From the NCBI GenBank assembly GCA_047967505.1, contig CM106538.1: a DNA stretch of 64,000 nt; one strand, written 5' to 3'. The stretch is from Dipteris shenzhenensis (lineage: Eukaryota). Below the pieces are notes generated by a model. That model worked only from the letters and a program-made list of their open reading frames with translations, did not search any database and was not told where the DNA came from. Shown here piece by piece: positions 15,351 through 47,123 of the stretch. The translations under genes and the position numbers were made by a program. Position 1 is the first letter of the stretch, and every line of letters starts with the position of its first letter.

Positions 15351-15428
15351 AAGTCATTCTTCTTATAGTTTCATGAATGAAATGATTGAATGAATGTCTA
15401 ATTATGGTATTCTTGCTATGTATTACAG

Positions 15429-16620: not shown

Positions 16621-17481
16621 GGAGAAGAAGTGGAAGAAAACTTTGATGATGAAATTAGTTCACTGCTTAGCAATGCCGTTTAGAATTTGTAATTTTTTTT
16701 CTTTGGATGTTAATTTTCTATATTGGAGTGAATTTTAAATTTCTATTTTGAACTAAGAGAATAAACTCAATGATATTGTACATGATTGGATCTTTCTACA
16801 TGATTTTGTGCTTGTAGTATAGGATGCCTAATAATTTATTTGATTCTTAAATCATGAGTTACTTCTTACTTGTTATGGAGATTTAATTTGAAGAATCACT
16901 CCACCTTGTGCACATGGCATTAAATGGCAATATATGTGTATAAGAAATGAATGTAAGCAAAGGCTTGGACAAGCAGACAAGGAGAATGCAATACGCATAT
17001 TGCGTATGGTGACACTTAGGGAGATTGGGTTACTAAATCAATCACAAATGGAGGAAATAATAAACAGCTAAGCAAACTTGCATCTCTTCAAAGATAAAAT
17101 TATAGCTATAACCCAAAGAGAATTCATAAAAGAGGATTTAAAAGAACTTTAAGAAAAGCTTGATTGAAAGAGAATCAAGTCATGAATTGGATTGAAAGTT
17201 TTATTGGATGCAGCATCAACACATATGAGGAATCATTAGCGGCGAGAAAGAACTCAATAAATGCTTTTAACTTGTATTTGTGGGATTTAGCATGGAATAA
17301 TATGAAAGCAAAAACAAAGACAACTAAGAAAAGATTACCGAACATTGATGCAACACTTGTTGCAAAAGCCAAGATGGCTTATTCTAAGTCTCAAAGAATA
17401 AATGATAGCATTGGAGATGAGGAAAATAGCCTAAAGTAGAAGTTACATGCATCTTATTGTCACTTTGAGAATTGCCATATA

Positions 17482-18480
17482 ATGGTATTTCTTATAGAAA
17501 AGGAGATTATAAAGGGAGATAAGCTTGGTGAGGGAGCATATGGAAATTCTTATAAAGTTAAAATCATAGGAAATCCATGGCTTATGTATTTTACTTGGTG
17601 TGCAGAAAAACAATTCAAGGGTCAACCAACAAGGCAAGCTAGTGAAGCAAGACAAAAACAATCGATGCATCCTGTTCTTGTCCATGTGATTGCAGCCACT
17701 AGTGTAAGACCTTTTGGGAATATTACACCATTATTTAATGGAGGTTTAATGGAGGAAGATTACACCAATTTATGCTTAAACTTTCATTCAACAAGGGGAG
17801 TTACACTAGATACATCCATAGAAAAGGAATTGAAAAAAGAAAGTTTGAAAGGTTTCAAGGGAAGCTTCTTGAATTGGAGATTGCACCAAAGGACCTTGAA
17901 CAAATTTGCAATTTTGGTAAGGCTTTACCAAGCTACTTGCATGACCTTGTACAAGGAATGCATATACTACATGACAGACAATGGATGCATACTGATTTGC
18001 ATGCAAGCAACATCGTCCTCGACTTCACTTCTAGTGGGGACTCTAGAATAGGCATCATAGATTGGGGAAGGTCACTTGATGTCACAGAGGATAGAGTGGC
18101 ATTTGATGTGATGAGAAAGAATTAAAAAGAGAGAGATGAAACTTTCCAAGCTCGAGTTGCAATAGAAGTACAAAAGAGGTGTGGAATAAAGGGGATAACC
18201 CCAGAACTACATAATCCATTGAAAATTGTACGCTATTCTCGAGCAACAGATGTCTATGCATTAGGTTGGATTCTAAAAGAGATGTCTCTTTTATGAGGAT
18301 TCTAGATACCTTCTTGAAAAGGTGTCTAGACTTCTAGATATCCAGCTTATAAAGAAGGTCAAAGAATGGATTATAGACAATGTGATGAATGGAGATCCAC
18401 GTGTTCGTTACTCTTTAGAACACGTGGACAACTTCTTTGCAGGTCTTGGTTTCAAAGGGTTTCTTGCCATACGTCCTTGA
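17482..18480 (+). pseudogene. intronless protein kinase pseudogene (HxDLH type)
   Basis: LGEGAYG loop, AEK, WMHTDLHASNI, IIDWG, ITPELH, DVYALGWILKEM and DPRVR in the correct order across frameshifts. Confidence 0.85.
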
Positions 18481-18822
18481 CATGAAGATCCGGCAATGGT
18501 TTTGGGAGCAAATACTTGTAACTGAATTATTTTGTATCATGAAAAGCATTCCTTGAGATCTTATCATATCTGATATTATAGATCTTTGGTATTTTTTCAT
18601 TTTGGTTGGATTGACATGTTTATTGAGTTTTTGAAATACTTATTTATATAAGTATTAAAATAATAAGGCAAATAGTATTATGCTTCAATTGGAAAGAATA
18701 TTTTTGTGATAAAATATTTCTTATGTTTCTAAGTATCATTAATTTTTCCTTGTTCATGTATCTATTTCTTGGGCATCCTTAAAACTGTGTATCTATACCT
18801 TGAATATCAACAAATATGTATG

Positions 18823-18824
<2 letters not shown>

Positions 18825-18872
<48 letters not shown>

Positions 18873-19020
18873 TGTGTGTGTGTGTGTGTTCTCTCTCTCT
18901 CTCTCTCTCTCTCCCTCCCTCCCTCCCTCCCTCCCCCCCCCCCCTCTCTCTCTCTCTCTGTCTCTTTGTATGTGTGTGCGCATGCGCGAGTGCATATAAC
19001 TCTCTCATCCCCCTTCCCCC

Positions 19021-19060
<40 letters not shown>
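18825..19060. repeat. compound (CT)n/(GT)n/poly-C microsatellite
   Basis: Seen directly. Confidence 0.95.
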
Positions 19061-19063
<3 letters not shown>

Positions 19064-19479
19064 GTCTTTGGCAATTGTACATGGCATGTGCTTTGTAAAC
19101 TCAAAAGCCTTGCATTCTATTTTTGCATGATGGGTTTTGCAATCATTGGCCAATTAACAATGACGGTTTAAGGTTTGTGCTCCAGTTTTGTGTAAGAAGA
19201 AGAAACCATTAAGAACAACAATACTTCTACGAAAGACGAACAAGCAATGCATTCAAGTCCATGCTAATCACACATTTTGTTGGTGAATTGAACCCAACAT
19301 TACAAAGGACACAATACTCCAAATTTCTCCACAATATTGGTGGCCTCCTCTGTCGATGCACACCTCCACAATCGACACAGGCATTTGTGCTTGTCTTGGA
19401 AGCTCCTATGCATGTACTAGGAGGTGTGGATTTGTAGTCTTTGCTTCCAATGGAAAAGGCAAGACCTTTCCTGGCCATG

Positions 19480-20470
19480 CATCACGTTCTATGGTCCATT
19501 ATTGAAGACTGTTCGTACTGCCCTCCAGTTTGTGTCTGCCTCGTCCACCCCATGAAGCCTTTAAAGTCTGCAGTGGGGTGCCCACACTTCTCCATGACAT
19601 CATTTAGCTTCGACCAGAAAATGATCTGAGCCTCAGTATCCTCTTTCATCTTGCACATGGCAACATTCATCAACTCTTGGACGCTGCATAATACAACTAA
19701 AGCTAGGCATAAGCATCATCCTTTCGGTGCTAGAGGGAATGTAGGAATAATAGCATTTGCCTTACCTCGTGAGCAGCCATCGTTGTCCACCCACATACGC
19801 GCCATACATGGTCAAAACATATCCAGCTATTTTGTAGATCTCCACCACCAGTGCGGCGCATGCAGTTCACTAGATCTACCCCCGAAGCACGGCCTATTGT
19901 CGACATCTTGAAGATAAAGCATCTACTTTCATCATCGATTGCTTGAGCAGGGAAGAGGCTCCCATGGAAAAATCTGTTAGCACATCTTTGCTTCAGCTTC
20001 AAGAGCCTAGACTCCATGCCTTCATCACTTTTAGTGAGCACCACAGATGCTTGAACTTGAGCCAAGTTGTCCATTCGACTACGCATTATGTTGCTTCTAA
20101 GAATGCAAAGAAAACACATTTGTGTGTAGTTGCCATTGGGTTGGCCCTACATGGTTTACATGTGCCTTTGGACAAGAGGCTCCAACTCCTCAAGCATTGC
20201 CATCAACTCATTATCCCCATAAGGGAGACACCCGGATCGTGGATGAGGGCGCTTGAGTTTTTTTTTTTTGCGACTACCATTTGTAGGTGTCTGGGACCTA
20301 CTGCACTAAAGTCCTTCACCATCTCTTCGACTGTGCACCTAAAGTCTTTTACGTGGGATCTACAAGTACCTCTTTGCACCTCGTAATTATGCATGCCCAT
20401 GTGGAAAAAGAGTCTCATAATTTTGGGCCCCGCCATCACGTAGTACGCCACACATTCGCATTGCTTCAAA
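19480..20470 (-). pseudogene. MULE-like DDE transposase pseudogene
   Basis: CECVAYYV...FFHMGMHNY (C/H finger-like), FIFKMS, SWICFDHVWRVCGWTTMAAH, FWSKLNDVM...FKGFMG. Resembles a MULE-related family recalled from moss/fern genomes; frameshifted. Confidence 0.55.
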
Positions 20471-21224
20471 AGAATGGGGGGACAGCCGAAATGTTGTTCA
20501 TTTTTCCTACAGCAGATGAGAGAAGATTATAACATGCAATAGTGTAACATCTAATTCAGGTATGTAACATTGGTACCCGTTTTAAGATTCCCTAAAAAAT
20601 TCATTAAAATTATAACTTTTTCAAAAAAAGGTCATATTTTGCTTAGTGAATTTTTCAAAACACTTAAAATCCTATCAATTTTGGTACATAATGTCCGCAA
20701 ATTATGAAGGACCTCGACTACAGAGGACAATGTCAATGTATTTAGAAAAATCAAGAAGTCTGTAATTTTTTTCATTACTTTGACCTTTTATTTTCAATAG
20801 AAAAACTACATGATACAACTTTCGATCTTACGTATAGAAACATAACCTTATCAAAATTCTTAAGTTAAACTTAGTAGTATCACATAAAGTACTGAAAGAG
20901 TTAAAAAAATCATCAAATTAATGAGAAAAAAATGCCTCCTTCAAAACATTCAACGCATATGGTCTCAAATGTCTTAAGAACGCTTGCCTATTGAAACAAT
21001 TCAAAATCACAAAATTGTCAATATAATTCCATAATTGGAGTCTACTCAATTCTCCCATATGTGTCATCTATATCATCTTCATAACCATCCCCAACAACAA
21101 ATTAATGGTAACAGCTAAATGTTCAAAACATTCAAAGCATAAGGATTCTAATATGTCTTAAGAACACTTGTCTATTGAAACCATTCAAATACAAAAAACT
21201 GGCAATACAATTCCATACTAGAGT

Positions 21225-23705
21225 CTACTCAATTCTCCCATATGTGTCATCTACCTCATCTTCATCACCCTCCCCAGTATGGGTTTCCTGTATGGGTTTC
21301 TCAATCACTTTCTCTTTCACAACCTCCTTCTCCCATGTATCAGCTAGCTCGCTTGCCTCCATAAAACCGGGTTTCAATATCTCAGGAGGTTGGGGTTCCC
21401 ATGATGAGGCTACCACTGAATCTGCATCGAACTTCCCACCTTTCAAACCAAGCTCGTGATGCTCATCAGGCAAGTGATGAATAGCAGTCACTCTCTTCTT
21501 TATGTAATCACATTGAATAGGATCTTTTTCAACTGCAATTACATTTCGACCCTTTTTTAAGGCACATGTTGTGACTGTGCCTGAACCAGCAAATAGATCG
21601 AGTACCCACTCATGCTCATTTGAAAATAGATCTATGAGCTGATTAATTAGGAGTTGTGGTTTTTGATAAGGATTTACTATCTCCCCATTCTTATCCATGG
21701 TCACATGCCTGAGCTTCTTCGTCACAACTAGAATAATGAAATGATCAGGAGTAAATGGAGCAGATGAGGGAAAATTGATGTGACCAATATTTTTTTTTCC
21801 ATCCACAGACCAATACCCAACTGAAATGTTTTCTATAGCAGATGTGAATTGATGTCCTTTCATTTGTCTCACATTGGGTTTCATCCTATGACATGCAATA
21901 AAAATAAGTTTTAAATTTATCAAAAGAAAATACAATTATAACATAATAACTGACCCAAAAAAATCTTTGCATTTCATTGCTGCACTCACCAATAACGGTG
22001 GTCACGTCCAGCACATTTATAATTGATGACACTCATCATCACTGCCCCAGACTGCAAGTCTGAATGAAAAATTACAACACACCAAAGCGTTGCTGACATA
22101 ATTGACATGAATTGGTCAAGAAGACTCATTAGTTCCTTTGCTTTGTAAGGGACCTCATCAATGGTGGATCTGGGAATATTAAATCCATATGGTATGTCTG
22201 CAATGACCAACGTGTACTCATTCTTTAGAACTATCTTCGATAATTCATTGCAATCTCCGTTGAGCACATGATAAAAGTTTGGTGGATGGTTTTCCCCCCT
22301 ATCAAACTCTAACATGTCATCACTAAGAGTGATAGATTGTTGTTGAGTTTGACGCTCTTTTTCTTTTGCAGCCCGGTCAATCAATTGCTTAAAGCTTGCA
22401 GGCATCATACTACTCTTAGATCCCTTCTTGCCTCTTTTCTGAAGGTGGTTGTCAAAATAACAGCTCAATATTTTAAACATTCAAATCTACAATTCGAAAG
22501 AAAAAATTCCATTAGAATATGTATACCAAATTTGACATACCATGCTTTTGAATACATTGAAATATGGAGCCAAGCTCTCCATCCTGCTGCTCTCTAGATA
22601 CTCCTCCCGAATAGCATTCCAATCTGGCATGTTCGATTGCCGGATCATTGCTTCCTGCATTCTCATGTATATTTTATGCCTGCATTGAAAACACATGTAA
22701 AATTCTTCTCACTTTTACACTTGAAACAAAGTCTATTGAAACATTATCTGTAAAGAGATTAATGTAAAATCAAGGAGAGACATGATGCAAAAGAGAGAAG
22801 TTTATGAATTTGCACATTTCATCCAAAGAGAGATCCCCAAACACCACTCTACCAAGCACAGACTTAATTAGAATCTCATCTTTAATTCCCTACATGCTCT
22901 TCCATGCTGTGGCTCAAATTTCTTCAGGTAATGCCTTCAACATCTGGGTTTCTTTCTTGACTCCTTTAGGTATGAGTTTTTCCTACCCTTTGATTTCAAA
23001 ATTCTCCCACTTGGAAAAAATTGCATTTATCAAATCCCAAACTTCTCCACTACGAAATGAAATTTGAAACATCCCGTCCCATGATCCGAAGCTGTCACTT
23101 AGCCTTGACGGATCTTTAATTGTTGCAGAAATCCTAGTCTCATTTAACAAAGACAAGCGAAACTCTGGAGTGATCAAAGAATGATCCTCATTGAGTTTCG
23201 TAATGAACTCATTGTGATAGAAACGAACCCGTTCTATCCAAGACATATACTCATTGTCATTATTGTGATCAAAAGCCAGTAAGTTTGCCTTCAAATCAGT
23301 CAAACCAGCATAAACTGTACAATTACATGTCTTGTAATGAGAGTTGCACAAAACTCAATATTCACCTACCTTTTTACCTCTACTGAATGGGAGCCTCCAA
23401 GAATAAAGTAGTTATAATCATTTGCTTTCCGACGATCAAAAGATGCCTTGTCTAGACAATCTTTTGGATCCACGAGCACAATGTAGTTCACAACTTGTGC
23501 ATGCGGATTGTCTTTCATTCGTGACTTCAAATTCTCAATATGGAAAGGATGTATTTTTTGCACCTCAAATGGCCGAAGGCCAATCCTAGGATCAATAGGA
23601 GGTCTGATAACATGATCAATGTGCAAGAAGAAAGTCTGTCAATCCACAAGGTTATCTCGTTGTACCTTTGCTCGAACTCTATTTTGTTGTGTATCTGAGG
23701 TGCCA
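21225..23705 (-). pseudogene. spliced ParB/Srx-like + beta-class N6/N4 DNA methyltransferase gene (3' part)
   Basis: GDC...LVIADIPY (motif IV, 22187-22198), YWMKPN, QKPQLLINQLI, VLDLFAGSGT (motif I, 21579-21593), AVEKD. GT-AG introns at 21886-21989, 22487-22540 and ~22680-22815. Upstream exon has FILGGSHS...VYAGL. Stops and one frameshift in the N-terminal exons. Confidence 0.85.
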
Positions 23706-24479
23706 GAGGTTCTAGGGTTTAGAAGGAGTTCTAGGGTTTAGAAGAAGTCCAGGGTTAGAAGGAGGTTCCAAGGTTCAGAAGGAGTCTAGGGTTAGAAGGA
23801 GGATCCAAGGTTCAGGGTAGAGTACATGGTGAAGAAATCGTCTCCCTCATAGATCATGGAGTTTAAGGGTTGAGGAACAAAGGGTTTAGGGGGAGCATAG
23901 GAGTGGGAGAGGAAGAAGGTGTAAGAGCATGGGGGAAAGAAGAGAGAGGAGGGAGGAGGAGGAGGGAGGAGGAGGAGAGAGGAGGAGGAGGAGGAGGGAG
24001 GAAGAGGAGGAGGAGGGAGGAGGAGGAGGAAGGAGGAGGAGGGAGGAGTAGAGGGAGAGGATGGGTTGCAAGGTTGGAGGTGAGGGGAGGAGGAGTTGCA
24101 AGGTTAGGACATGCTTTTGGATGTGGAGTGCAAAGAAGCATGGACACTTGGGACAAATGCTTGGAATACCAAAGTAGACTCAACACAATGCCCCAAAGAG
24201 TGTGGGCTTCATTCCATTATGGGGTATTTATACAAGTTGGAGAGCTTCTCTCTCTGCATGTAGGAATTGTAACACATTCTCTCTCTACATGTAGAAGTCG
24301 TAACACAAAGTTGTAACACATTCTCTTTCTACACGTAGAAGTCGTATGTAGAAGTTGTAACACATTGTCTTTCTACATGTAGAAGTTGTAACACAAAGTT
24401 GTAACACATTCTCTTTCTACATGTAGAAGTTGTAACACATTCTCTTTCTACATAAGTCCATGTTGGCACAGAGTCAACA
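23706..24479 (-). repeat. 3' LTR of Ty3 element (outer ~340 bp missing)
   Basis: Matches 39730-40578; starts TGTTGACTC on the minus strand. Confidence 0.9.
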
Positions 24480-25234
24480 TACTCCCGGATCCATTTTATT
24501 ACCCATCCTCGGGTTATGGCTTATTTTGATTTCAGAGTTGGGATGCCATGTGCGTAATCCAGTCATTCCTGCTGTAATGCTTGTGCACCATACGGTTTGT
24601 GGTCTGTAGGCAAGAAGCTTATCTCCTCTTAAGGAGGGGTAGACGGCTGTGAATTTCAAAGGGGATCTCATTGTTGAGGTTGCGGACTCTGCCATCGAAT
24701 CTTCTTGGGAAGAGGTTTGGCGGGGGTCTCATTGTTGAGGCTGGCATTTCTTGCTATCTTGCATACATGTTGGATTCGATTGCACTTGTATCATTGAGCT
24801 TGTAGATAATTAGTATGCAAGTCTAATATTTTTGCATATAGGAGACGGTTGTGATGTTTGGCGGGGGTCTCGTTGCGGAGGCTGCAGACTCTTTTGCCAA
24901 TTCATCTTGAGTTTTGGCATAGCTTCTTGTCCTGCTTGTGAATTCATTGCATGCTTTGAGAGTATAGAATGAAAGTGTGTGATATTGTTATTGATGCGAT
25001 CTATTATGTGCCTATGCAAAATCGTGTGAGTGCATGTGATGTGTCTAACTATATGCTTATTTGTGGGATTTAATAGGGAAATAAGACTCAAACATCCCTA
25101 ATACGAAATTGATTCGGTCTTCCTAAATGTGCAAAAACGTGCATATGCTAGTGAGTGTGCGTGTAACAATCTAGTGCAAATTATATGTGCAAAAACGTGC
25201 ATATGCTAGTGAGTGCTTGTGATACAATCTAATC

Positions 25235-33300: not shown

Positions 33301-33314
33301 GGGCTCTGATACCA
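33301..33314 (-). other. primer binding site (tRNA-iMet)
   Basis: TGGTATCAGAGCCC on the minus strand next to the Copia 5' LTR. Confidence 0.93.
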
Positions 33315-33464
33315 GTTGTGGGAGAGGAGAGCACACACAAAGGGATAGGGAGACACCAAAAAGTGGTGGTGCAAAAGCTACTCCAGCTTATTCCTCTTTC
33401 ATATATATATGAGTATACATGGGCACTGTACAAGTGGGTGGGCACACTGCCCTTTACCCCAACA

Positions 33465-36100
33465 TGTTGGAGTGGAGGATCTACTTGTTGCACCTTAGCA
33501 TCGATCTGTGAGAAGTTGGGGTCTGATGAATGGCAGTTGTCGATGGTTGCCAATGTTTGTATCCAGTTATTGACATTGCTTTGTGAGTCACCTGCTATGG
33601 CATGCTGTTGCAAGGGAGCTGATTTGCTTGAGATTGTTGTTGAAGATGTGTCATCCAACGCTCTATTAATAGCTCCTATCCCCACATTCACCCTAACTAC
33701 AGTGTCTTGATTCTGGATTGTCAGTCTATCAATTCCCCAGTCATGGAGGACTGATGCTTCCCATAACCAAGGACGTCCCAGTAAGATTTGATAGGATTTT
33801 TTAGGGAGATCCAAGATTGTGAATTGAAGGGAAAAGTGGACTCCTGCAATCTTTGTAGACACGCCATTCACTATCCCCAAGGGTTTAGCGTGTGAATCAT
33901 CGACAAGGTGTATGTTGAAATTAGCCTTTTGCATCGGTGGGAGACCCCATTCTTTGTAGAGCTCCTTTGATAGGACATTTACACCTGCTCCACCATCCAC
34001 TATGGCTTGGACTTCATTATATGCCTTGTGGATCAAAGGCATAGTAATGTTGCGTATGTCATCTCTCTCACCCATCCGCACAGGGATATCTTCAATGTCG
34101 TTCATAGGTGGAGGCGCATTTGCGAGTTCAATCCATCCTTTGAAACTCTCCCAGAGATTGGGACAATTCCGTAAGAGGATTCCGATGGGAATTGACACAG
34201 GGCAACTCAGGATGCTAGAGAGTGCGGCTCCTTCAAGTTCACGTGGCGGTACATTATGCTCTAGAGTCTGTTGTTGGAACAAAGGCTCGAGTACAGTATT
34301 AATACTTTGTGGGGCCAAGTCATGGATTGGGTCTTGAGCTTGTTTCTTAGCCTCAAATTGAGCTTGTTCATTTTGTACCCATTGTTGAAGTGCTTGAAAA
34401 CGAGCCTTCTCCACCTCTGCATTTGGATATGGAGCTTCTTTTATTTGAGGCTCGGGAGTTGATGTGGATGAGCTCGGCTGCTCATTGCTTGGTGGAAGTG
34501 GAGGCACTTGTGCTTTCTTTTTAAGAAGCCTCTTTGGTTGGATTGGAATGTTAGGGTCCTTGGTGGTCTCTTTCTGTTGGCGTGTAATTACATTTACAGG
34601 TTGTGATTTTACACTTGCCGGATCCAGACTTTGATGGTCCACCCTAATGATGCCAATTGGGATGTCAGGCTTAACCTGTGTTTGTTCTGGGATCTTATTT
34701 TTCATGGGACAATCCATACAGGCATGTCCTATGCCATAATCTTTGTAGAGTGGTTGGAAAGTAGCGGGGCTACCATGATGAGGGCACTCTGCGATCCGGT
34801 GATTTTCGCCACAACCGTAGCACTTGATTGGTGCTCGAAATGTATTGGCTCGTACTTGATTTGCATAAACTAGTATTAGACCCTCTGCACCTTCTACATA
34901 GTACACTGGGTGCTCTGCTTCATACTCAAATGGCGAGTCTACTTCCTCAGCTTGTAATTGATGTATTGGAACTGCTTGAGGAGCTAGATTTGGTGCTCTT
35001 GGGTATGGTCGTGGATTTGGATTCCTGAGTAGTTGTGGGACTTGTGTCCGAACGGGTATAGGATTTAGCCTTGGAGCTGGGGGCGCTTGTGCAAGTGCCA
35101 ATTTCCTATACATTGGTATGGGTGCCACTTGGTATTGTTGAGGTCGAGGCGGGTTGTTGCGCATGTTGAGGATGCAACTGTTCTCATCATGGCCGACGAC
35201 GACGCAGATATGGCACCACAACCTTGGTGGTGGATTTGCTTGTGCAGTGATCCTAGCTCTTAGGACCGGACACTCATTTGCTGTATGATTGGCCATGCAA
35301 TGTGGACACTAGACATTTTCTCACCGTGGATATGTCTGAGTTGGTGGCTAAGACAAGTGAAGTTTTTGTTCCATGGCCCTACATCATGTCTTCTTTCAGC
35401 TTCATGGTCATGGCCTCTAGGCGATCTTCATTTGATGTTTCAGCAATGTCCTTTGATTTATCCTTTTTCGAGTGCTTATCTCGTGTATTAGATCTACCGT
35501 CATCACTGCTAGTGTTTGAGTCGATCATGCCATCCTCGATGTCAATGGCTGCCGCATGAGCAGCACTGAACGTTTCATAGCTACTTATCTATTTCATATC
35601 CTTTCGAATTTTCTTCTTAGACCTGCTATGAACCATGCCGTGAGGTACTTTGCATCTGGGCGTGGGTCACATTTGGTGATTAATCTCTTCATCTTACCCA
35701 GGTACGTGTGTACATCCTCTCGCCAGCCTTGTTCGAGCTTGCTTAGTTGGAGAGCGAGATCATCTTGTAGCCTCTCTGTTTGAAAGCATCGTTTGAATTC
35801 TGTTTGAAGTAGGTCCCATGTGGCGCGTTCTTCCATGAGAAGGTCTAGGTACCATTCAAACGCTTCATCAGTTAAGGCCATGGGAAACCAAGCCACCTTG
35901 GTTTCATGGGATTGATCTCCACCTACGCGGCATGCGGCATCAAAATGTTAGAGGAATCGGGCTGGATCTCCCCAACCATTATATTTGGGAAGTTCCAGTT
36001 TTCCCAAGGGGCATCGGCCTTGATTGTTGTTATTTCTTCGATTGAAGAAATTGTCAGCCTCGGCATCGAGGTCGATATCCCCATGATTGTCATGATGGCG
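33465..36100 (-). pseudogene. Ty3 gag-protease (continues at 27477-26400 beyond the Copia insertion)
   Basis: WFPMALTDEAFEWY...TWDLLQTEFKRCF; knuckles CHICVVVGHDENSC and CYGCGENHRIAEC; protease AIVDGGAGVNVL...LLGRPWL. Confidence 0.9.
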
Positions 36101-36659
36101 TCCAGCCATGTTGGGTCTGGAGGAGTTAAAGGGAGTGGTTGAATCTCAGGGGGGGATCTGAGGTAGAGGATTGGCGGGAGCGGTTGTTGTAGCAGAGTTA
36201 TATGCGGATGTGGCGAGTGTTGGAGTTGAAGGCATTGGTTGAAACGTAGCTGCATGCAGATTGGGCAAAATTTGCAAAGGTGTCTCTGCCACAAGTGCGG
36301 GTGTGGATGTAGCTTTGTTAGGAGCATTAGAGTGGTGTTAGTTTGTGTAGGGACTATCATGTTAATAATGTGCCTAAGATTGTCCTATGTGTGTAGGAAA
36401 ATGTGCCGGTGCAGATGGATCGTTAATCGGAGGTCACGGCGTGAAAATATGAGCAAATTTGTGCGAAACAAGGCCCACACGGGGGCGCAAATGAGCGAGT
36501 GCTAGGGATGCCGAAATGGTGTGCAATGGGCTGGAAAAATACCCCATAGCATGGTGTTTCCGTGTGTGAAATCTGGGTTCAAACGGATGAGTTACGAGGG
36601 GTTAAAGTAGGGGTCAAATTTGCTTTGTGGGGGGGGTGTCCCAACTGAGGGGTTTGAAC

Positions 36660-37422
36660 CAAGTTAATCTATTTAGGTTAACTATCCTATTTGTCTAATT
36701 AGATGCCTAATCAGTTAGGCTACCCTAACCTAGTTAGGGTTAAACTGACCACAGTTAGTTCAACTAACCTAGTTAGGGTAACTAACCAACAGTTAAACTA
36801 ACCTACCTAAGGTAAAAACTTACCTAACGTAGGTTAATACTAACCGAACCCAAGTTAATACTAACCTAGGTTAAAATTAACCTAACCTAGCCTAGTTTAA
36901 CTAACTTAACCTAACTGTAGCTAAAACTAACCTAACTAAGGTTAACTTAAACCTAGGGTTAGCTTTAGGTTAGCTTTTTTTTTTTGTGACTCCTGTGGGG
37001 GGCTTCCTGACGGCGGCGGCCGGGGGGGGGGGGGGTGTTTTTTCAAACAGAGGGGAGGGGAGGGAGGTGGAGGGAGGGGAGGGTGGAGGGGCGGGTGAGG
37101 GAGGTGGAGGGGAGGAGAGTGTGGAGTGGGGAGTGAGGGAGGTGGGCGGGAGGTAGAGGGCGGAGGGCAGGGGAGGAGCGCTGCGGGCAGAGAGCATTGG
37201 CGGAGGGGCGCCAGCAGGCACGCCGCAGGCGGAGGCATGCCAAGGGAGGCGCATGAGCGGGGAGCGTTGGGTGAGCGCTGTCGCTGGCGGGGCGAGGTGC
37301 TACCGACGCGTCGCTTAGGGGCTGGCGCTGCGTGCGGGCGCTGCCCTTGGGTAGCAAGGGCCTTAAGGCCCTTGCTTAGATGCTAGGCTAGGTAGGTTAG
37401 GGAGCGGCCAATGAGGGGGGCT

Positions 37423-37453
<31 letters not shown>

Positions 37454-37489
37454 GAGAGAGAGAGTGAGAGAGAGAGTGAGAGAGAGAAG

Positions 37490-37526
<37 letters not shown>

Positions 37527-37591
37527 TGAGAGAGAGAAATAGAGAAGAGAGTGAGAGAGTGAGAGTGTAAGAGAGAGAAAGGGGGAGGGAA

Positions 37592-37641
<50 letters not shown>

Positions 37642-37716
37642 TGAGAGAAAAAGAAAGAGAGAGGAAGATGGAAAGAGAGAGAGACAGAGAAGAGGAAGAG
37701 AGAGAAGAGGGAGGGG

Positions 37717-37778
<62 letters not shown>

Positions 37779-38720
37779 GGAGGGATGGAGAGATAGAAAA
37801 AGAGAGAAAGAAAGAGAGAGGGGGAGGGAAAAGAGGTAGAAAGAGAGAGAAAGAGAGAGGGGGGAGGGAAAGAGAGGGAGAAAGAGAGAGAAAGAGGGAG
37901 AGGGGGAGGGAAAGAGAGGGAGAAAGAGAGAAAGGGGGAGGGGGTGGTGGTGGAGGGGGGTGGTGGAGGGGGAGGGGGGGAGGGGAAGGGGGGAAGGGGG
38001 GAGGGGGAGATGGAGATGGAGGGGGGGTGGGGGAGGGGGAAGGGGTGGTGGAGATGGAGGGAGAAGGGGGGAGGGGTGGTGGAGATGGAGGGGGGCAGGG
38101 GAAGGGGGGAGGGGGGGAAGGGGAGATGGAGATGGAGGGGGGGGGGAGGGGGTGGTGGAGATGGAGGGAGAAGGGGGGAGGGGGTGAGGGCATGGTGGAG
38201 ATGGAGGGAAGAGGGGGGAGGGGGTGGTGGAGATGGAGGGGGGGAGGGGGGAGGGGAAGGGGGTGGTGGAAATGGGAGGGAAAAGAGAGAGAGAGAGAGA
38301 AAGGGGGAGGGAAAGAGGGAGGGGGGGTGGTGGAGATGGAGGGGGGAGGGGGTGGTGGAAATGGAGGGGGGAGGGGGAAGGGGGTTGGTGGAAATGGGGG
38401 GGAAGGGGGTGGTGGAGATGGAGGGGGAGGTGGTGGTGGAGATGGAGGGGGAAGGGGGAGGGGTGGTGGAAATGGAGGGGGGAGGGGGAGGGGGAGGAGA
38501 TGGTGGAGATTCAGGGGGGAGGGGGGTGGTGGAGATGGAGGGGGGGAGGGAGAGGCGGTGGTGGAGATGGAGATGGAGGGGGGACGGGGGGAGGGGAGAT
38601 GGAGATGGAGATGGAGGGGGGAGGGGGTGGTGGAGATGGAGGGAGAAGGGGGGAGGGGGTGGTGGAGATGGAGGGAGGAGGGGGGAGGTGGAGATGGAGG
38701 GGGGGAGGGGGGAGGGGGAA
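36660..38720. repeat. low-complexity blocks in the Ty3 leader: AACCT-rich, GC-rich, (GA)n and GGTGGTGGAGATGGAGGG repeats
   Basis: Seen directly. Confidence 0.9.
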
Positions 38721-39368
38721 AAAAAGAGAGAAGAAATAAAAAACTTGACAGACGGAAATTGAAAGGGAGGGAGAGGTGGTCACCTAAATGCTCTCCAAGT
38801 CTTTCTCGATGTCACGGGATTGTTGAAGAACAGTGGACGGTGGGTGGATGGCTAGGTTATCGCTACGAGATGGGCTCGAAGTCACTTACAATGTGAGGAT
38901 GGGAGTAAGGTGGTGGTCGATGGAGAGGGAGGAGTGTCTTGCGTAGGGCTCAGAATGAAGAGGAGGATGGAGGCACAATGTGAAAGATGAGAATGAGGGG
39001 GTGGAGTGGGTTTTTATAGGAAATGAGTTTAGGTTTAGGGCTAAACCCTAAACTTTTCCCGAGCCGTAACTTGTTATGGATAGCTCGGTTTGCTCTTCTG
39101 CAAAAAAGGTGAAATGATTGAAATTGCAAGCTCTATGCATTCGTGTTCACTACCTAACCTAATTGTCAATCAAGTGGCTTCTATTCAAGAAATAAAGAAA
39201 ATTTCTTAAGGTAGTAACCCAAGGTTGATGCTTGGGGTTGATATGTTTGGCTAGAATTGGGAAAAATTTTACTCTCCTTGCCCTTGAGTGTTATTTTCGT
39301 AAAAGTTCAAAGTAGTTTGTTTTTCTACACATACCTGCGTATGTTTACTCTTACTTGAGATGCTAATC

Positions 39369-39386
39369 TCCCCGGCAATGGTGCCA
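39369..39386 (-). other. primer binding site, tRNA-Asp type
   Basis: TGGCACCATTGCCGGGGA on the minus strand, close to the Athila consensus TGGCGCCGTTGCCGGGGA. Confidence 0.85.
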
Positions 39387-39388
39387 AA

Positions 39389-40578
39389 TGTTGGCTCTTT
39401 CCTACTGCTTTCATAGGAAGAGCTGGGTTTTCTCAGTATGCACGGTTTCGAGGCTTTTTGTCACCTACAGATATATTAGAGTTGTCGATTGCAGTATACG
39501 TGTAGCTTAGGACCTCGAGTCGTGTTCCGATGAGAGATGTAGGCTTAAGTGTGGTAAGCGGACATAGTGCATGCATGTGTAAAGGGAACATGAATCATCA
39601 TGGTTGAGGTAATGAAGGCTTTCACCTTCATTGGGGGTTGTAGGGTTTAGGAGGAGTTTAAGGGTTAGAAGGAGGTTCCAGGGTTAGAAGGAGGTTCCAG
39701 GGTTCAAAAGGAGGTTCCAGGGTTAGAAGGAGGTTCTAGGGTTTAGAAGGAGTTCCAGGGTTTAGAAGGAGTCCAGGGTTAGAAGGAGGTTCCAAGGTTC
39801 AAAAGGAGTCCAGGGTTAGAAGGAGAATCCAAGGTTCAGGGTAGAGTACATGGTGGAGAACTCGTCTCCCTTGTAGATCATGGAGTTTAAGGGTTGAGGA
39901 ACAAAGGGTTTAGGGGGAACATAGATGTGGGAGAGGAAGAAGGTGTAAGAGCATGGGGGAAAGAAGAGAGAGGAGGGAGGAGGAGGAGAGAGGAGGAGGA
40001 GGAGGAGGGAGGAAGAGGAGGAGGAGGGAGGAGAAGGAGGAAGGAGGAGGAGGGAGGAGGGAGAGGGATAGGATGGGTTGCAAGGTTGGAGGTGAGGGGA
40101 GGAGGAGTTGCAAGGTCAGGACATGCTTTTGGACGTGGAGTGCAAAGAAGCATGGACACTTGAGACAAATGCTTGGAATACCAAAGTAGACTCAACACAA
40201 TGCCCCAAAGAGTGTGGGATTCATTCCATTATGGGATATTTATACAAGTTGGAGAGCTTCTCTCTCTGCATGTAGGAATTGTAACACATTCTCTCTCTAC
40301 ATGTAGAAGTCGTATGTAGAAGTTGTAACACATTCTCTTTCTACATGTAGAAGTCGTATGTAGAAGTTGTAACACAAAGTTGTAACACATTCTCTTTCTA
40401 CATGTAGAAGTTGTAACACATTCTCTTTCTACATGTAGAAGTCGTATGTAGAAGTTGTAACACAAAGTTGTAACACATTCTCTTTCTACATGTAGAAGTC
40501 GTATGTAGAAGTTGTAACACAAAGTTGTAACACATTCTCTTTCTACATGTAGAAGTCCATGTTGGCACAGAGTCAACA
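39389..40578 (-). repeat. 5' LTR of Ty3 element (1190 bp) with internal minisatellites
   Basis: TG...CA termini; ~19-bp AGGGTTAGAAGGAGGTTCC repeats and TGTAGAAGTTGTAACACATTCTCTTTCTACA repeats. Confidence 0.92.
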
Positions 40579-41240
40579 ATAACCCTCCTCTGTATGCTCC
40601 TCAGAATCACTATTGGAAGTTGATACCTCCATCTTCTCGATTATTTCATCAACCTCCACAATTTGATTTGTCAAGTGATAAATAAGATCCTGGACACACA
40701 AAACAAAATTGAATCTCTCATAGTATTCAAAAGAAATTACATAAACAAAGAAAATTAGAAAATACTTATGGATAGTAACTAACCTTCCCTTCCTCTTTGA
40801 TTTGTTTTGATTGTTCTGCTATAGTAGGCGGAGTAACAGCTTTCAAAGAGAACTTCTCTTCCATAACAATACAAACAATAGGTTTCTTATTGTTATCAAT
40901 CCCAAGCATTTCAACACATTCCTCGTTGGACTCACTTCTTGTGATATCTTTAATCTTTATTATTGGCTTAAAAATTGATCTTCCAGTGGGAAGTGTCTTT
41001 GGAAGCAATAGAGTCATCTCTTCTGTATCAGTGTCAACTTTGATGGTCCATTTTGAACCAATGTTATTGTGTACTTCCGCTATGTCCCATAATCTTTGAA
41101 TTTGCAATGAACCTTCATCAAACAGAGCAAGAACATCATAAATCTGTTGAAGTTGTTGCACCTCAAGACTTGGATCCTTGGCACTTTTTCCAAAGACATG
41201 GATTCCTCTGAAAGTTTGTTTGTTCAACATGATACCTACA
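40579..41240 (-). pseudogene. probable 5' exons of the ParB-methyltransferase gene
   Basis: Open exon ~41236-40781 ending at GK|GTTAGT, then exon ILFYHLTNQIVEVDE...EEGY (~40690-40579) running into the LTR on the same strand as the MTase. Confidence 0.55.
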
Positions 41241-41606
41241 AAAGACATAAACAATGTCAAAATATTATGATATCATGGAGAGAATATCTCAAGTTGAAAA
41301 AAACAAAAGCTAGTACAACAAGCTTGATGGTTTCTAAAAAGACTTTGAGCTTCTAACATCTACATTCTTCATGGAAAACGATGTAGACATGCTTATTACT
41401 AGAACATGATTTCGGACTAGAGAATAAAAAACAAAAAAGCATGAAAAGTAACAACACTACAATGCAAAAACGACAAAATTATGACCAAAATGCCTCTCTC
41501 TTAAATTTAATTTAAAAACACTAAAAAACAACTCCATAATTCGAAGAGAAAATTCTACTTTTCAATACAAATCAACCAAAAAATAAACAAAATTTATCGA
41601 CAAATC

Positions 41607-41653
<47 letters not shown>

Positions 41654-41756
41654 CCTCTCCATCTCTCTCTTGCTCCCTCACACCCTCTTTCTCTCTCCCC
41701 TCTCACTATCTCCCCATCTCTCTCTCCCTCTCTTTCTCTTTCTTCCTATTTCTCTA

Positions 41757-41856
41757 NNNNNNNNNNNNNNNNNNNNNNNNNNNNNNNNNNNNNNNNNNNN
41801 NNNNNNNNNNNNNNNNNNNNNNNNNNNNNNNNNNNNNNNNNNNNNNNNNNNNNNNN
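41757..41856. other. assembly gap (100 N)
   Basis: N run. Confidence 1.
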
Positions 41857-42147
41857 TAATCGAAGAAGAGGAGGAGAAGGAAAACGAGAATAATGCCTCT
41901 AGCAAGCATAGCAAAAGTGTGAGCACACCCTCTTCCCGAGGGCTACGCGGCAAAGGCAGAGGTTGACGTGCACCAAAGCGAGGCCAAAGAGGAGTCCAAG
42001 GACAATGACGAGGAGGGTGTTCTTGGAGAGATGGCACTAAGAGCCTCCTGCAATAAGACAATCGTGCGGGAGTGCATCGAGGACTAGCTACAATCATTCA
42101 CTGTGAGTAGTTCGGTCTTTTGAAGGTCTATAATCTCAAGGCATGGA

Positions 42148-43790
42148 GTGAGAACGAATGTTTGGGCTAAATTTAAAATTTCCTTTGTAGGTGGAAAAAA
42201 CTATCCCTTTGTCCCCGATCCCCTTGTGTTGATTGCTCCCAATGCCCACTATCCGGCAGATCACATCTCGCACCCAAGAGATGCAGGAAACATTCTTCTC
42301 AAGTGGGTACTTACCGGGTTTGGGTGTCTTCATCGTGTCCACCGCCACACCAAGATGCAAAAGAGAGATGTGGATGAGGATGTGAAAAGGGAGTGTAATG
42401 CGCACTGGCTCCGGAAGCACGAAGAATTTGAGGAAGAAATTAGGCACACAGAGTGGGCATTCTTGTCAAATTCCTTATTTTATATTTGGGATGGGAACCA
42501 TCACCACACAGGTTGGATGACCAAGATAAGGACATGTAAGTATTGTAGTCCATTCATTTGGGTGATTCAACATTAGTAGCCACGTTTCATTTGTTTACTC
42601 ATGAATTCTTTTTTTTCTTTCGAGTGCTAGCATAATGATGACGAGCGCTAGCATATATGCGTCCAATGCTGTTTAATGGAGGTGCCCTCGGAAGATGAAG
42701 GAGAGTTGTTGTTTGCTTGTCTTTAGCTGCCTCACCCTCGCTGAAGGATTGTTTAATATGTTGCTTTCGACTCCAGGCTAGCACAGATGGTTGCACCACC
42801 ACTTTTTCGGACCTCATTTGCGAGGCCAGAGTATTGGGTGCTATATCAAATGTGGCAATCCATCGAAGATTGTCAACTGAGCAGAAATAGTGGCTGGACG
42901 CCCATGAAGAAGGCAGCTACTATGAAAGTGCATTGGTACAAAAACCCTCTTCCAGTCATGGCACAGGTGATGTGGATTGTAAGGATTAATAATGGGACAC
43001 TTTTCCCTTTCCTTCTCTAGTTTTCGTAATATGTTTGTTGACAAGGCAACAAATGCATGTGCAGGACACGTATGACAAACACTTGCATCCAGTCATGTAT
43101 AGCCGTCACAGCGAGTTGTTGGATGATGACTTTCGAAAGAAATGGAGAGAAGCGTACTATAGTGTGAACGACAAGCTCTTGAAGCATACGCGTCGACTCC
43201 TAAAGTTGGCTAACCCTGCACTAGGGGCAATATGGTACAAGTATGTAAATTGTGGGGATTACATGTGGAATGACAACGATTAGATGACAGAGACTAACCT
43301 GGCAGGCTTGTCCTTTTGAATGTGCCAGTTTTATGTCTGTAAAAGTGGCAAACCGAGCCCTGAGCCATTTGTCGGGCGAGTGCGAGGATTGGGCCACGAT
43401 ACATGATTCGAACACATCAATGTGTGAGGAGTTCCAGTTGGATCAAAAGTGCTCGGAGGAAGTGTACAAGAAGTGCCCGCTATTCTTGGATTACTCTGAA
43501 GGGGAGCACCCACGAGAGGAGAAAGAAATGTACATGACGTACAACAAACTAAGGGGGCCCAAAGAACCACTGAAGCCTGCAATGACGGTATGTACAAACT
43601 CAAGTGTCCCCCAAAAGATTTCTCTTCCAAGTTATTTTATGTACTTACAAAGGACTCTATGCTACAGGAAAGTGAAGCAAGCAAGGCGGGGGTGCCTGCA
43701 TCTACTAGAGCGGGCAAGAAAGCGGCTGAAAGAACAAGGGAGCAAAAAAAAAGATCGGGAGGCCAAATAAACCCTTTGGGCGAATTTCTT
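42148..43790 (+). pseudogene. multi-exon gene with ParB/Srx-like WDGNH motif
   Basis: FYIWDGNHHHTGW at ~42478-42516, donor GTAAGT at 42536, further exon-like frames at ~42776-42966, 43066-43283 and 43333-43770; stops and frameshifts. Confidence 0.55.
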
Positions 43791-44181
43791 GGGCGAATTT
43801 CTTGCCCTTTGCAAAACAAAAAGTATTGAATTTAAAATAATGACATGTGGCTTCACGAGAGGGCAGATTTCCCTTTTATGTCACAATGCTACCTGCCTAA
43901 CAAGACAACAAGGTGAAAATTTCACTAAGCAACCCTTAAATCCCCTATGAGGTTATCCTTCTATCATAGCATTCATTTAAGGCCCTTGTACGATTCAAAC
44001 TTGGCCTTTGGGGTGTCAAAAACACTCCAACCACTAACCCAATTTTAAGCATGTAAACTGACGCAATCTTAAGCATGTAAACTAACCAAATTAAGTGCGT
44101 AAACCATCCTTAAGTTGGCTTTTTAGTCTCAATTCCAAACATGAAAAATCATCCATAGTGCCACAGGACGAGTGTTCCCTG

Positions 44182-47080: not shown

Positions 47081-47123
<43 letters not shown>

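What the first reader, a model, noticed from the sequence alone, without database searches (positions are those of the whole stretch)
16900..43900. Candidate large cargo-carrying DNA transposon: kinase, MULE-like transposase, ParB-MTase and divergent ParB-like gene
Removing the Ty3 insertion (23706-40578) leaves a compact ~10-kb cluster: HxDLH kinase (+), MULE-like transposase (-), ParB-MTase (-) and a head-to-head WDGNH ParB-like gene (+). None looks like a normal plant housekeeping gene, and all are similarly decayed. Inference: one mobile unit with DNA-modifying and signalling cargo, possibly for self-marking or evading silencing. Termini were not identified, and a 100-N gap lies between the divergent genes.
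Basis: inference. Interest (0 to 1): 0.72.

Follow-up and report, generated by a model that had tools for sequence, protein, structure and literature searches.

The report
Dead ParB-methylase gene among transposon debris
A broken plant copy of a DNA-binding (ParB) plus DNA-methylase gene, a kind known as cargo of giant algal transposons, lies among decayed mobile-element remnants, but nothing shows that the four neighbouring genes ever moved as one unit.

Summary
Partly confirmed. The nested LTR retrotransposon (23706-40578), the 100-N gap, a decayed protein kinase (17.4-18.5 kb, +) and a ParB-like/beta-class N6/N4 DNA methyltransferase pseudogene (21228-23716, -) are real.

The methylase belongs to a large eukaryotic family. 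An AlphaFold model of that family's N-terminal module matches ParB/Noc structures. Papers on brown and red algae describe proteins of this kind as accessory genes of giant DNA transposons.

Two of the four genes have no statistical support:
- The "MULE-like transposase" (19.2-20.5 kb) matches no profile or homologue. It shows only a D...CxxH-type motif seen by eye.
- The "WDGNH ParB-like" gene (42.1-43.8 kb) aligns to the ParB box over 12 columns only.

No termini or target-site duplications were found. In 12 related metagenomic loci the ParB-methylase occurs without any of the other three genes. In three of those copies the repeat unit ends 834 nt past the stop codon.

The window's genome is not held and no sequencing run was listed, so genome-wide linkage could not be tested.

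Most likely this is a dead copy of a mobile ParB-methylase gene lying among unrelated transposon remnants. The single four-gene element has odds of about 0.1.

The parts
12559..14923 (.). Array of 15 sites of a 20-nt palindrome (CTAGCTTATCAATGAGCTAG type) inside a 62-190-nt tandem array. Whether it belongs to the cluster is unknown. It is listed as a possible parS-like array by analogy only.
   Evidence: 24 strand-matches at 15 positions, all between 12559 and 14923; 0.10 expected by chance. Searches (D7, D10) show the tandem structure. The pattern is absent from the 15 related loci.
16134..16612 (+). Fragment of a hAT-type gene (DUF659 domain). No hAT dimerisation domain was found. This is an unrelated transposon remnant at the left edge.
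   Evidence: Pfam DUF659 E 1.1e-16 and 7.9e-8 for the upstream piece.
17440..18477 (+). Decayed eukaryotic-type protein kinase domain. By eye it shows a G-loop, an HTDLHASN catalytic loop, DWG, TPE and subdomains IX and XI. It has one in-frame stop (18123-18125) and frame changes near 17.74 and 18.28 kb.
   Evidence: Pkinase 32.7 bits against a 31.7 cut-off when read through with X; 28.9 bits for the single ORF; weak PDB kinase matches, E 0.002-0.05.
18733..19171 (.). CT/GA-rich microsatellite between the kinase and the DDE-like ORFs.
   Evidence: ORF translations; inverted matches to the GA-rich tract of the LTR element.
19230..20526 (-). Four ORF pieces in three frames. By eye they carry a transposase-like signature (CFDHV ... 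FKGFM / VDEADTNWRAVRTVF ... CLFHWKQ).
   Evidence: Sequences. No Pfam hit, no homologue among longer proteins, no Atlas hit, no PHROGs or PADLOC hit.
21228..23716 (-). ParB-like plus beta-class N6/N4 DNA methyltransferase pseudogene. ParB-like and HTH part at 22773-23716, linker at 22490-22708, MTase at 21228-22480 (motif IV ADIPYG, motif I FAGSGT). It has at least one frameshift with a stop at 23354-23369 and three in-frame stops at 22794-22985, all in stretches that are continuous in relatives.
   Evidence: homology; RsrI, MboIIA, CcrM; ParB/Noc fold of family member P0062.
23706..40578 (-). Ty3-order LTR retrotransposon (gag at 35.6-35.9 kb, protease at 33.2-35.3 kb, integrase at 25.8-26.3 kb). 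It carries a nested Copia-like element (27483-33464) and sits at the 5' edge of the ParB-like coding region.
   Evidence: Family homology runs up to 23701-23716.
40769..41272 (-). Open 168-aa ORF upstream of the ParB-MTase once the LTR element is removed. It has no relatives. It could be a 5' exon or a chance ORF.
41757..41856 (.). 100-N scaffold gap. It is CT-rich on its left and GA-rich on its right.
42124..43829 (+). ORF series that includes the FYIWDGNHHH motif. There is no supported homology to ParB or to anything else.
44095..45799 (+). Host gene for an M20 peptidase (IAA-amino-acid-hydrolase-like; that name is my recall). It sets the right-hand limit of any element.
   Evidence: Pfam Peptidase_M20 and M20_dimer.

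Best explanation
The window is plant nuclear DNA crowded with decayed mobile elements. Its core feature is a dead copy of a ParB-like plus beta-class amino-DNA-methyltransferase gene (21228-23716, minus strand).

In working copies of this family I infer the following mechanism. The N-terminal ParB-type module (nucleotide-binding fold plus helix-turn-helix) binds specific DNA sites. The C-terminal methylase (D-I-P-Y catalytic motif placed before the FxGxG SAM motif) puts N6-methyladenine or N4-methylcytosine on nearby DNA. The gene would thereby mark the DNA that carries it. That is the role proposed for the same protein type in giant algal DNA transposons.

This copy cannot work. It has at least four disabling lesions and a nested LTR retrotransposon at its 5' edge, inserted roughly 1.5-9 million years ago.

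The neighbours are most likely separate remnants brought together by repeated insertion and decay, not parts of one element. They are a decayed kinase, a transposase-like ORF series, a hAT fragment and the WDGNH ORFs. The true extent of the unit that once carried the ParB-methylase is unresolved.

Shown: the gene's identity, its fold class, its decay, and multi-copy relatives with a sharp repeat boundary. Inferred: mobility in this genome, self-marking, and the independence of the neighbours.
For: - Identity: Pfam N6_N4_Mtase E 2.5e-13; closest solved relatives are RsrI, MboIIA and CcrM.
- Homology: colinear with P0001 over aa 123-646. All but 1 of 230 tblastn segments from 150 family representatives fall at 21.0-23.7 kb on the minus strand.
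- Family size: 156 cluster representatives at E<=1e-10, many of them fragments.
- Fold: AlphaFold model of member P0062, pLDDT 86.3. Foldseek matches Noc 7nfu at E 1.1e-5 and ParB 6sdk at 2.1e-5, with 13 matches at E<=1e-3.
- Decay: stops and a frameshift lie in stretches that are continuous in relatives.
- Relatives: 12 loci with copies 88-98% identical. L002, L005 and L012 stop matching each other at the same base, 834 nt past the stop codon, and have different flanks beyond it.
- Neighbours: 0 of 12 loci and 0 of 28 long family members show a kinase or transposase partner. No TIR above chance between the proposed ends. A hAT fragment and two LTR elements show the region is mixed transposon debris.
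Against: - The related loci are short (1.1-7.9 kb) and distant (34-45% protein identity), so their lack of partners is weak evidence for this genome.
- The transposase-like ORFs lie on the same strand only 702 nt downstream of the methylase, and the literature links such methylases with DDE transposases.
- One 19-nt inverted pair with 1 mismatch (20639-20657 and 43914-43932) brackets the ParB-MTase through the WDGNH ORFs. Its score was reached in only 2 of 100 Markov resamples. It has no TSD and was the best of three region pairs examined.
- A palindrome array at 12.5-14.9 kb resembles the arrays reported next to ParB-type cargo genes in Bostrychia.
- Mobility in this genome was not tested.
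- Names and taxa of family members could not be retrieved.
Confidence: 0.6

Rival explanations
1. Kinase, MULE-like transposase, ParB-MTase and WDGNH gene are one cargo-carrying DNA transposon of about 10 kb, perhaps extending left to the palindrome array. It was later split by the LTR insertion.
For: - The four lie together in 10.1 kb, and all carry stops or frame breaks.
- There is precedent for ParB and methylase cargo in Mutator, Plavaka, Zisupton and Sola1 elements of algae.
- A transposase-like motif is seen by eye in the frames printed.
- The palindrome array is at 12559-14923.
Against: - There is no TIR above chance between 11-17.5 kb and 43.3-44.3 kb (best score 11; shuffle maxima 10-14), and no TSD.
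- The MULE-like and WDGNH genes have no profile or homologue support.
- 0 of 12 related loci and 0 of 28 long family members show the partners.
- The repeat unit of relatives ends 834 nt after the methylase.
- A scaffold gap separates the WDGNH ORFs from the rest.
- 'Kinase' occurs nowhere in the main text of either algal paper.
Confidence: 0.12
2. A two-gene remnant. The ParB-MTase and the downstream DDE-like ORFs (19.2-23.7 kb, same strand) come from one DNA transposon. The kinase, the hAT fragment and the WDGNH ORFs are unrelated.
For: - Same strand, 702 nt apart.
- Published pairings of this protein type with DDE transposases.
- A D...C-x-F-H style motif seen by eye.
Against: - There is no statistical support that the ORFs encode a transposase.
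- In relatives the unit ends before any such gene.
- No termini were found.
Confidence: 0.2
3. The ParB-MTase is a host (domesticated) gene family of non-flowering plants. This locus is a duplicated pseudogene and not transposon cargo.
For: - The closest homologue is an annotated 670-aa gene model.
- Relatives keep introns and long open frames.
- Marchantia uses prokaryote-type N4C methylases as host genes (passages of 10.1101/2021.02.12.428880).
Against: - There are many fragmentary and near-identical copies.
- Copies share a sharp boundary and have different flanks beyond it.
- One family model is chimaeric with a Copia piece (P0048).
Confidence: 0.1
4. The kinase, ParB-like and methylase genes are relics of an integrated large DNA virus.
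For: Large DNA viruses and phages encode ParB-methylase fusions and kinases (PMC12704722 passages). There are weak phage-kinase and defence-kinase profile matches.
Against: - The scan of viral contigs gave only 3 relatives among 84 pattern matches, each covering 41-55 residues of the SAM-binding motif.
- No capsid, polymerase or packaging gene appeared among the 73 ORFs scanned with Pfam.
- Relatives have spliceosomal-type introns.
Confidence: 0.04

Closest known systems
ParB-like plus DNA methyltransferase accessory protein of the 21.5-kb Sola1-1_Ec32 transposon of Ectocarpus (PMC12477816; passages read)
   Same: Two-domain design: a ParB-like DNA-binding part followed by an N4C/N6A-type DNA methyltransferase. 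It is a eukaryotic, multi-copy family. The proposed role is binding and marking its own element.
   Different: The Ectocarpus protein is 1104 aa and sits opposite a Sola1 transposase inside defined termini. Here the family is about 650-700 aa, the copy is dead, no Sola1 or other transposase is demonstrated and no termini were found.
PAG2 (N6-adenine methylase + SET) and PAG3 (ParB + 2OG oxygenase) cargo genes of giant Plavaka, Mutator and Zisupton elements of red algae (10.1101/2025.02.11.637652; section 8 read)
   Same: ParB-type and adenine-methylase-type functions carried as transposon cargo. Tandem arrays of inverted repeats lie next to the ParB gene, and the window has a palindrome array 6 kb away.
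   Different: In red algae the two functions sit on separate proteins fused to SET or 2OG domains. Here they are fused in one protein with neither domain.
Phage and prophage ParB-CTPase-fold proteins fused to N6_N4 methyltransferase (PMC12704722; passages read)
   Same: Same domain pair and order. The fold matches ParB/Noc and the methylase matches Pfam PF01555.
   Different: The plant family is eukaryotic, and its relatives have introns. Pfam and PDB sequence searches do not recognise its ParB part. The GxxR arginine box reads GG(N/S)HS.
MpDN4MT1a/b, sperm N4-cytosine methyltransferases of Marchantia (10.1101/2021.02.12.428880; passages read)
   Same: A prokaryote-type beta-class amino-methyltransferase in a land plant.
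   Different: The Marchantia enzymes carry a TSPPY motif and no ParB part is mentioned (0 occurrences of 'ParB'). Here motif IV is D-I-P-Y (D-I-P-H in P0001), which points more to adenine. Specificity was not tested.

Membership tests
Eukaryotic ParB-like + N6/N4 DNA methyltransferase (transposon accessory type) | Beta-class amino-methyltransferase domain with the catalytic (D/S)PP(Y/F)-type motif before the FxGxG SAM motif | tested here: met
   PF01555 E 2.5e-13. ADIPYG at 21989-22480 and FAGSGT at 21228-21935. RsrI, MboIIA and CcrM are the closest solved structures.
Eukaryotic ParB-like + N6/N4 DNA methyltransferase (transposon accessory type) | N-terminal ParB-type fold with HTH | tested here: met
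   Window ORFs match the family profile (E 1.3e-37, 2.4e-6). The model of family member P0062 (pLDDT 86.3) matches Noc and ParB at E 1e-5 over about 280-296 columns. This was not shown on the window's own broken copy, and not by sequence profiles.
Eukaryotic ParB-like + N6/N4 DNA methyltransferase (transposon accessory type) | Lies inside a DNA transposon with a transposase, termini and TSD | tested here: inconclusive
   No TIR above chance at the proposed ends and no TSD. One borderline 19-nt inverted pair (2 of 100 resamples). The transposase is unproven.
Eukaryotic ParB-like + N6/N4 DNA methyltransferase (transposon accessory type) | Dispersed multi-copy family | not testable with these tools
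   No genome is held and no run was listed. Met in relatives only: 12 loci, 88-98% identical copies with a shared 3' boundary.
MULE / Mutator transposase | Match to the MULE/DDE catalytic domain profile | tested here: not met
   No Pfam family at E<=5 for the four ORFs, nor at E<=10 for three read-through frames, apart from a chance zinc-finger hit. Only a D...CxxH-like motif seen by eye; from recall, that motif is shared by several superfamilies.
MULE / Mutator transposase | Long TIRs and a 9-10-bp TSD | tested here: not met
Eukaryotic protein kinase (ePK) | Pfam Pkinase at or above the gathering score, with a catalytic loop and a DFG-type motif | tested here: met
   32.7 bits against a 31.7 cut-off when one stop is read as X. 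HTDLHASN and DWG are in the frame printed. The single ORF alone scores 28.9 bits, below the cut-off.
ParB/Srx-like domain (WDGNH gene) | Significant profile or fold match to ParB | tested here: not met
   - No Pfam, PHROGs or PADLOC match.
- No match to the family profile.
- hhalign: 12 columns, probability 0.17%.
- Atlas: the best clusters have no common family; a ParB_N-bearing cluster (11% of members) scored 0.88 at low recognition.
- The AlphaFold model is unusable, pLDDT 47.4.
Ty3-type LTR retrotransposon | Two LTRs flanking gag, protease ... integrase in that order | tested here: met
   No RT profile hit was seen among ORFs of 85 aa or more, and no TSD was identified.

The most novel reading that the evidence does not exclude
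Seed-plant-like genomes carry, or once carried, a lineage of cargo DNA transposons that mark themselves. Such an element would have a ParB-methylase that loads on an element-borne array of 20-nt palindromes (like the 15 sites at 12.5-14.9 kb) and writes 6mA or 4mC in cis. It would travel with a DDE transposase and a non-RD protein kinase as a signalling or regulatory partner. This would extend the algal 'ParB-methylase cargo' idea to land plants and add a kinase to it.
Probability: 0.1. Interest if true: 0.7.

Novelty: new member of a known kind. Interest (0 to 1): 0.35.

Why it matters
ParB-methylase cargo genes have been proposed to let giant transposons bind and epigenetically mark their own DNA. 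In the papers I read they are described only for brown, red and green algae.

A member in a plant genome with a gymnosperm-type closest homologue widens that range. My search for ParB together with gymnosperm, fern or Ginkgo listed no paper holding 'ParB' among the 12 shown of 1,718. It suggests that large non-flowering-plant genomes hold, or once held, an adenine or N4-cytosine marking system outside the usual 5mC machinery.

This locus is dead, so its value is as a pointer to intact copies elsewhere, not as a working system.

Tried and rejected
DATA THAT WERE NOT AVAILABLE
- Whole-genome co-occurrence: no genome is held.
- Sequencing runs: none was listed for 15300-23700, so no reads could be laid. 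No RNA holder was listed.
- Earlier findings of this scan: nothing by place, sequence or words.
- Names and taxa of family members: the listing of cluster members answered that the database is switched off.

SEARCHES THAT FOUND NOTHING
- Homologues of the MULE-like ORF and the WDGNH ORF: none. Only proteins longer than the query were searched, so near-length relatives remain unsearched.
- Atlas: a weak lead for WDGNH and no usable hit for the MULE-like ORF.
- PHROGs and PADLOC: nothing for the MULE-like ORFs, the WDGNH ORFs or ORF 40769-41272. They gave only generic kinase and methylase hits.
- Family proteins against 40579-44000 at relaxed thresholds: only chance-level matches, the best at E 0.005 over 27 residues.
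- PDB sequence-profile search with the ParB-region alignment: no ParB; the best hit was a MarR regulator at E 0.1.
- Viral contigs: only motif-level matches.
- The palindrome pattern and the relatives' terminal sequence turned up nowhere new in the fetched loci.

TESTS THAT GAVE NO USABLE RESULT
- Virtual removal of the LTR element gave no continuous frame joining ORF 40769-41272 to the ParB part.
- Single-sequence AlphaFold of the WDGNH ORF was unusable, pLDDT 47.4.
- My first TIR script printed nothing and was rewritten.
- Three alignments were too divergent for the metagenome scan. A narrower one worked.

CANDIDATE CONSIDERED AND SET ASIDE
- The inverted pair 20639-20657 / 43914-43932 was considered as a candidate TIR. 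It has no TSD, no further similarity inward, and a borderline score after looking at three region pairs.

Full report
WHAT IS IN THE SEQUENCE

The window is plant-like DNA of about 35-50% G+C. It holds an M20-peptidase host gene at 44.1-45.8 kb and a long (TAGGGTT)n tract at 61.6-62.4 kb.

- LTRs lie at 23706-24479 and 39730-40578. They are 96.3% identical over 762 aligned bases, K2P 0.038.
- With substitution rates I recall for plants (1.3e-8 to 2.2e-9 per site per year), this gives roughly 1.5-9 million years.
- Inside, on the minus strand, are gag, protease and integrase ORFs, plus a nested Copia-like element bounded by 148-nt repeats that are 99% alike.
- I could not identify a target-site duplication.
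- The 100-N gap is at 41757-41856.

THE FOUR GENES

1. Kinase (+, 17440-18477).
   - The single ORF with the catalytic loop scores just under Pfam's cut-off (28.9 against 31.7 bits).
   - Read through one stop as X, the frame scores 32.7 bits (E 6.8e-8), and PK_Tyr_Ser-Thr scores 26.9 against 23.1.
   - By eye it has a G-loop, HTDLHASN, DWG, TPE and the later subdomains, spread over two frames with one in-frame stop.
   - It is a decayed eukaryotic-type, non-RD kinase. Its subfamily is unknown: PDB matches are weak and generic.

2. ParB-MTase (-, 21228-23716). This is the solid part of the finding.
   - The C-terminal ORF matches N6_N4_Mtase at E 2.5e-13.
   - The one homologue found in the word-indexed search is a 670-aa protein that its source names Gb_37443, at 47% identity. 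I read 'Gb_' as Ginkgo from memory.
   - The window is colinear with that protein over aa 123-646.
   - The full HMMER scan found 156 cluster representatives at E<=1e-10 and 24 at E<=1e-30. Many are fragments. Several are full-length at 650-700 aa, and one 1825-aa protein contains two units.
   - Of 230 tblastn segments from the 150 listed proteins, all but one fall at 21.0-23.7 kb on the minus strand. The exception is a chimaeric model whose other part hits the Copia element.
   - The methylase is beta-class, with ADIPYG before FAGSGT. RsrI, MboIIA and CcrM are the closest solved structures.
   - Neither Pfam nor a PDB profile search recognises the N-terminal part as ParB.
   - An AlphaFold model of family member P0062, built on a 35-row alignment (pLDDT 86.3), does match. 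Noc and ParB score about E 1e-5 over about 280-296 columns, and KorB and sulfiredoxin follow lower down.
   - The window's ORFs at 22773-23638 match a profile of this module at E 1.3e-37, 2.4e-6 and 1.9e-5.
   - The copy is dead. A frameshift with a stop lies between GGSHSVEVKR and the next conserved strand. Three in-frame stops lie at 22794-22985. All are in stretches that relatives read without interruption. Other frame changes coincide with introns of relatives and need not be defects.
   - Family homology runs up to 23701-23716, that is, to the LTR edge. The retrotransposon therefore sits at or inside the 5' part of the gene.

3. 'MULE-like transposase' (-, 19230-20526).
   - It consists of four ORF pieces in three frames.
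   - Nothing supports the label. There is no Pfam family at E<=5 for the pieces or at E<=10 for the three read-through frames.
   - It has no homologue among longer proteins, no Atlas hit and no PHROGs or PADLOC hit.
   - In the frames printed I can see 'CFDHV', then 'FKGFM / VDEADTNWRAVRTVF' followed by 'CLFHWKQ'. This looks like the second catalytic Asp and the C-x-x-H motif that, from recall, several cut-and-paste superfamilies share.
   - That is a lead, not a test.

4. 'WDGNH ParB-like' gene (+, 42124-43829).
   - The ORFs and the motif FYIWDGNHHH exist.
   - hhalign places this motif on the family's Y-x-V-I-G-G-N-H-S box, but over 12 columns only, at probability 0.17%.
   - The family profile, Pfam, PHROGs and PADLOC find nothing. 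No homologue was found among longer proteins.
   - The Atlas gives only low-recognition leads, and the single-sequence model is unusable (pLDDT 47.4).
   - I treat it as an unidentified, possibly non-coding stretch directly upstream of the M20-peptidase gene.

IS IT ONE MOBILE UNIT?

The direct test, copies elsewhere in the genome, was impossible.

Indirect tests on the window:
- No inverted repeat between 11-17.5 kb and 43.3-44.3 kb exceeds shuffles. The best score was 11, against shuffle maxima of 10-14.
- The best inverted pair anywhere across the split cluster is 19 nt with one mismatch (20639-20657 and 43914-43932). It brackets the ParB-MTase through the WDGNH ORFs but excludes the kinase and the DDE-like ORFs. 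Its score was reached in 2 of 100 resamples. It has no TSD and no further inward similarity, and it was the best of three region pairs examined.
- A DUF659 hAT fragment at 16134-16612 and the two LTR elements show that unrelated elements have piled up here. Adjacency alone is therefore weak evidence.

Evidence from relatives:
- 0 of 28 long family members carry a kinase or transposase domain. 17 of the 28 show N6_N4_Mtase. One adds a SAM domain and one a C-5 methylase.
- A metagenome scan gave 12 related loci of 1.1-7.9 kb, out of 271 pattern matches.
- Only the ParB-MTase parts of the window match those loci. All 10 window ORFs with hits lie at 21228-23638.
- The loci are 88-98% identical copies, plus a subfamily at 72-74%.
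- L002, L005 and L012 stop matching each other at the same base, 834 nt past the stop codon. That point comes just after a GAAACGGG...CCCGTTTC hairpin. Beyond it lie unrelated sequences whose ORFs look like retroelement gag zinc knuckles and an integrase tail by eye; Pfam matched none of the flank ORFs it scanned.
- So in that organism the gene belongs to a repeated unit of at least 4.6 kb, with one terminus close behind the methylase and no transposase or kinase in the visible part.
- These relatives share only 34-45% protein identity with the window's gene and the contigs are short, so this lowers the four-gene reading but does not exclude it.

COMPARISON WITH WHAT IS KNOWN

- The Ectocarpus transposon survey describes a 1104-aa ParB-like plus N4C/N6A methyltransferase protein in the 21.5-kb Sola1-1_Ec32 element. 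[quoted passage not shown]
- The Bostrychia genome paper describes ParB-2OG (PAG3) and N6-methylase-SET (PAG2) cargo genes in Plavaka, Mutator, Zisupton and Fanzor-bearing elements, with arrays of inverted repeats beside the ParB gene (section 8).
- ParB-N6_N4 methylase fusions are enriched in phages (passages).
- A 2015 review of eukaryotic adenine methylases says land plants show few N6A methylases. It lists ParB-linked versions only in chlorophytes and chytrids (section 8 and passages).
- A search for ParB with gymnosperm, fern or Ginkgo listed no paper holding 'ParB' among the 12 shown of 1,718.
- The gene type is therefore known. Its presence in a plant genome of this sort appears unreported in the library I could search.
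- 'Kinase' occurs nowhere in the main text of either algal paper.

AN OBSERVATION OUTSIDE THE STATED COORDINATES

- 15 sites of a 20-nt palindrome (24 strand-matches; 0.10 expected by chance) fill 12559-14923 and occur nowhere else in the window.
- By analogy with the red-algal arrays this could be a binding array for the ParB module.
- Against that, it lies 6 kb from the gene, with the hAT fragment, the kinase and the DDE-like ORFs in between.
- The pattern is absent from the related loci.

VERDICT

- The ParB-methylase is real and belongs to a family best explained as mobile cargo.
- The claim of a single four-gene cargo transposon rests on adjacency only. It is weakened by the lack of support for two of its genes, the lack of termini, and the compact unit seen in relatives.
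- This is a new member of a known kind. The locus itself is dead.
- Supplementary files of the cited papers, which may hold element maps and protein sequences, were not read.

Noticed in passing
window 12559-14923: Tandem array carrying 15 sites of a 20-nt palindrome (CTAGCTTATCAATGAGCTAG type). None occurs elsewhere in the window, and 0.10 matches are expected by chance. It could be a satellite, MITE-like debris or a protein-binding array.
   Followed up: partly
window 61595-62420: About 118 copies of TAGGGTT, a telomere-type repeat lying inside the window, next to C-rich and CCCACT-type low-complexity arrays at 61.1-61.5 kb.
   Followed up: no
window 56967-59125: ORFs on the plus strand, including a 462-aa open frame at 57740-59125, have no Pfam match. 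The frame at 56967-57800 reads like a DNA-transposase fragment by eye (ASDGDSRRRK ...). A 98-nt satellite with 7 copies lies at 56194-56890, just upstream.
   Followed up: no
window 47122-47746: 180-nt inverted repeat, 98% complementary, with 265 nt between the arms and a nested perfect 72-nt pair. It looks like a MITE or a hairpin-forming element downstream of the peptidase gene.
   Followed up: no
window 27483-33464: A Copia-like element nested inside the Ty3-order element. Its 148-nt terminal repeats are 99% alike, so it is younger than its host element (96.3%).
   Followed up: partly
L002 3640-3765, L005 2058-2183, L012 4131-4256: Related ParB-MTase copies share a repeat terminus preceded by an 8-bp-stem hairpin (GAAACGGG...CCCGTTTC) about 18 nt from the end. 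AT-rich subterminal short repeats lie upstream. The 5' end of the unit is not on any contig, so the element class is open.
   Followed up: partly
P0005 (1825 aa), P0048 (429 aa), P0087 (533 aa): Unusual family members. P0005 has two tandem ParB-MTase units. P0048 is a model chimaeric with a Copia-like piece. P0087 has a SAM (sterile alpha motif) domain in front of the ParB-middle module.
   Followed up: no
window 41600-41900: The scaffold gap is flanked by CT-rich sequence on the left and GA-rich sequence on the right. This strand switch could mean an inverted join or simply two different low-complexity tracts.
   Followed up: no
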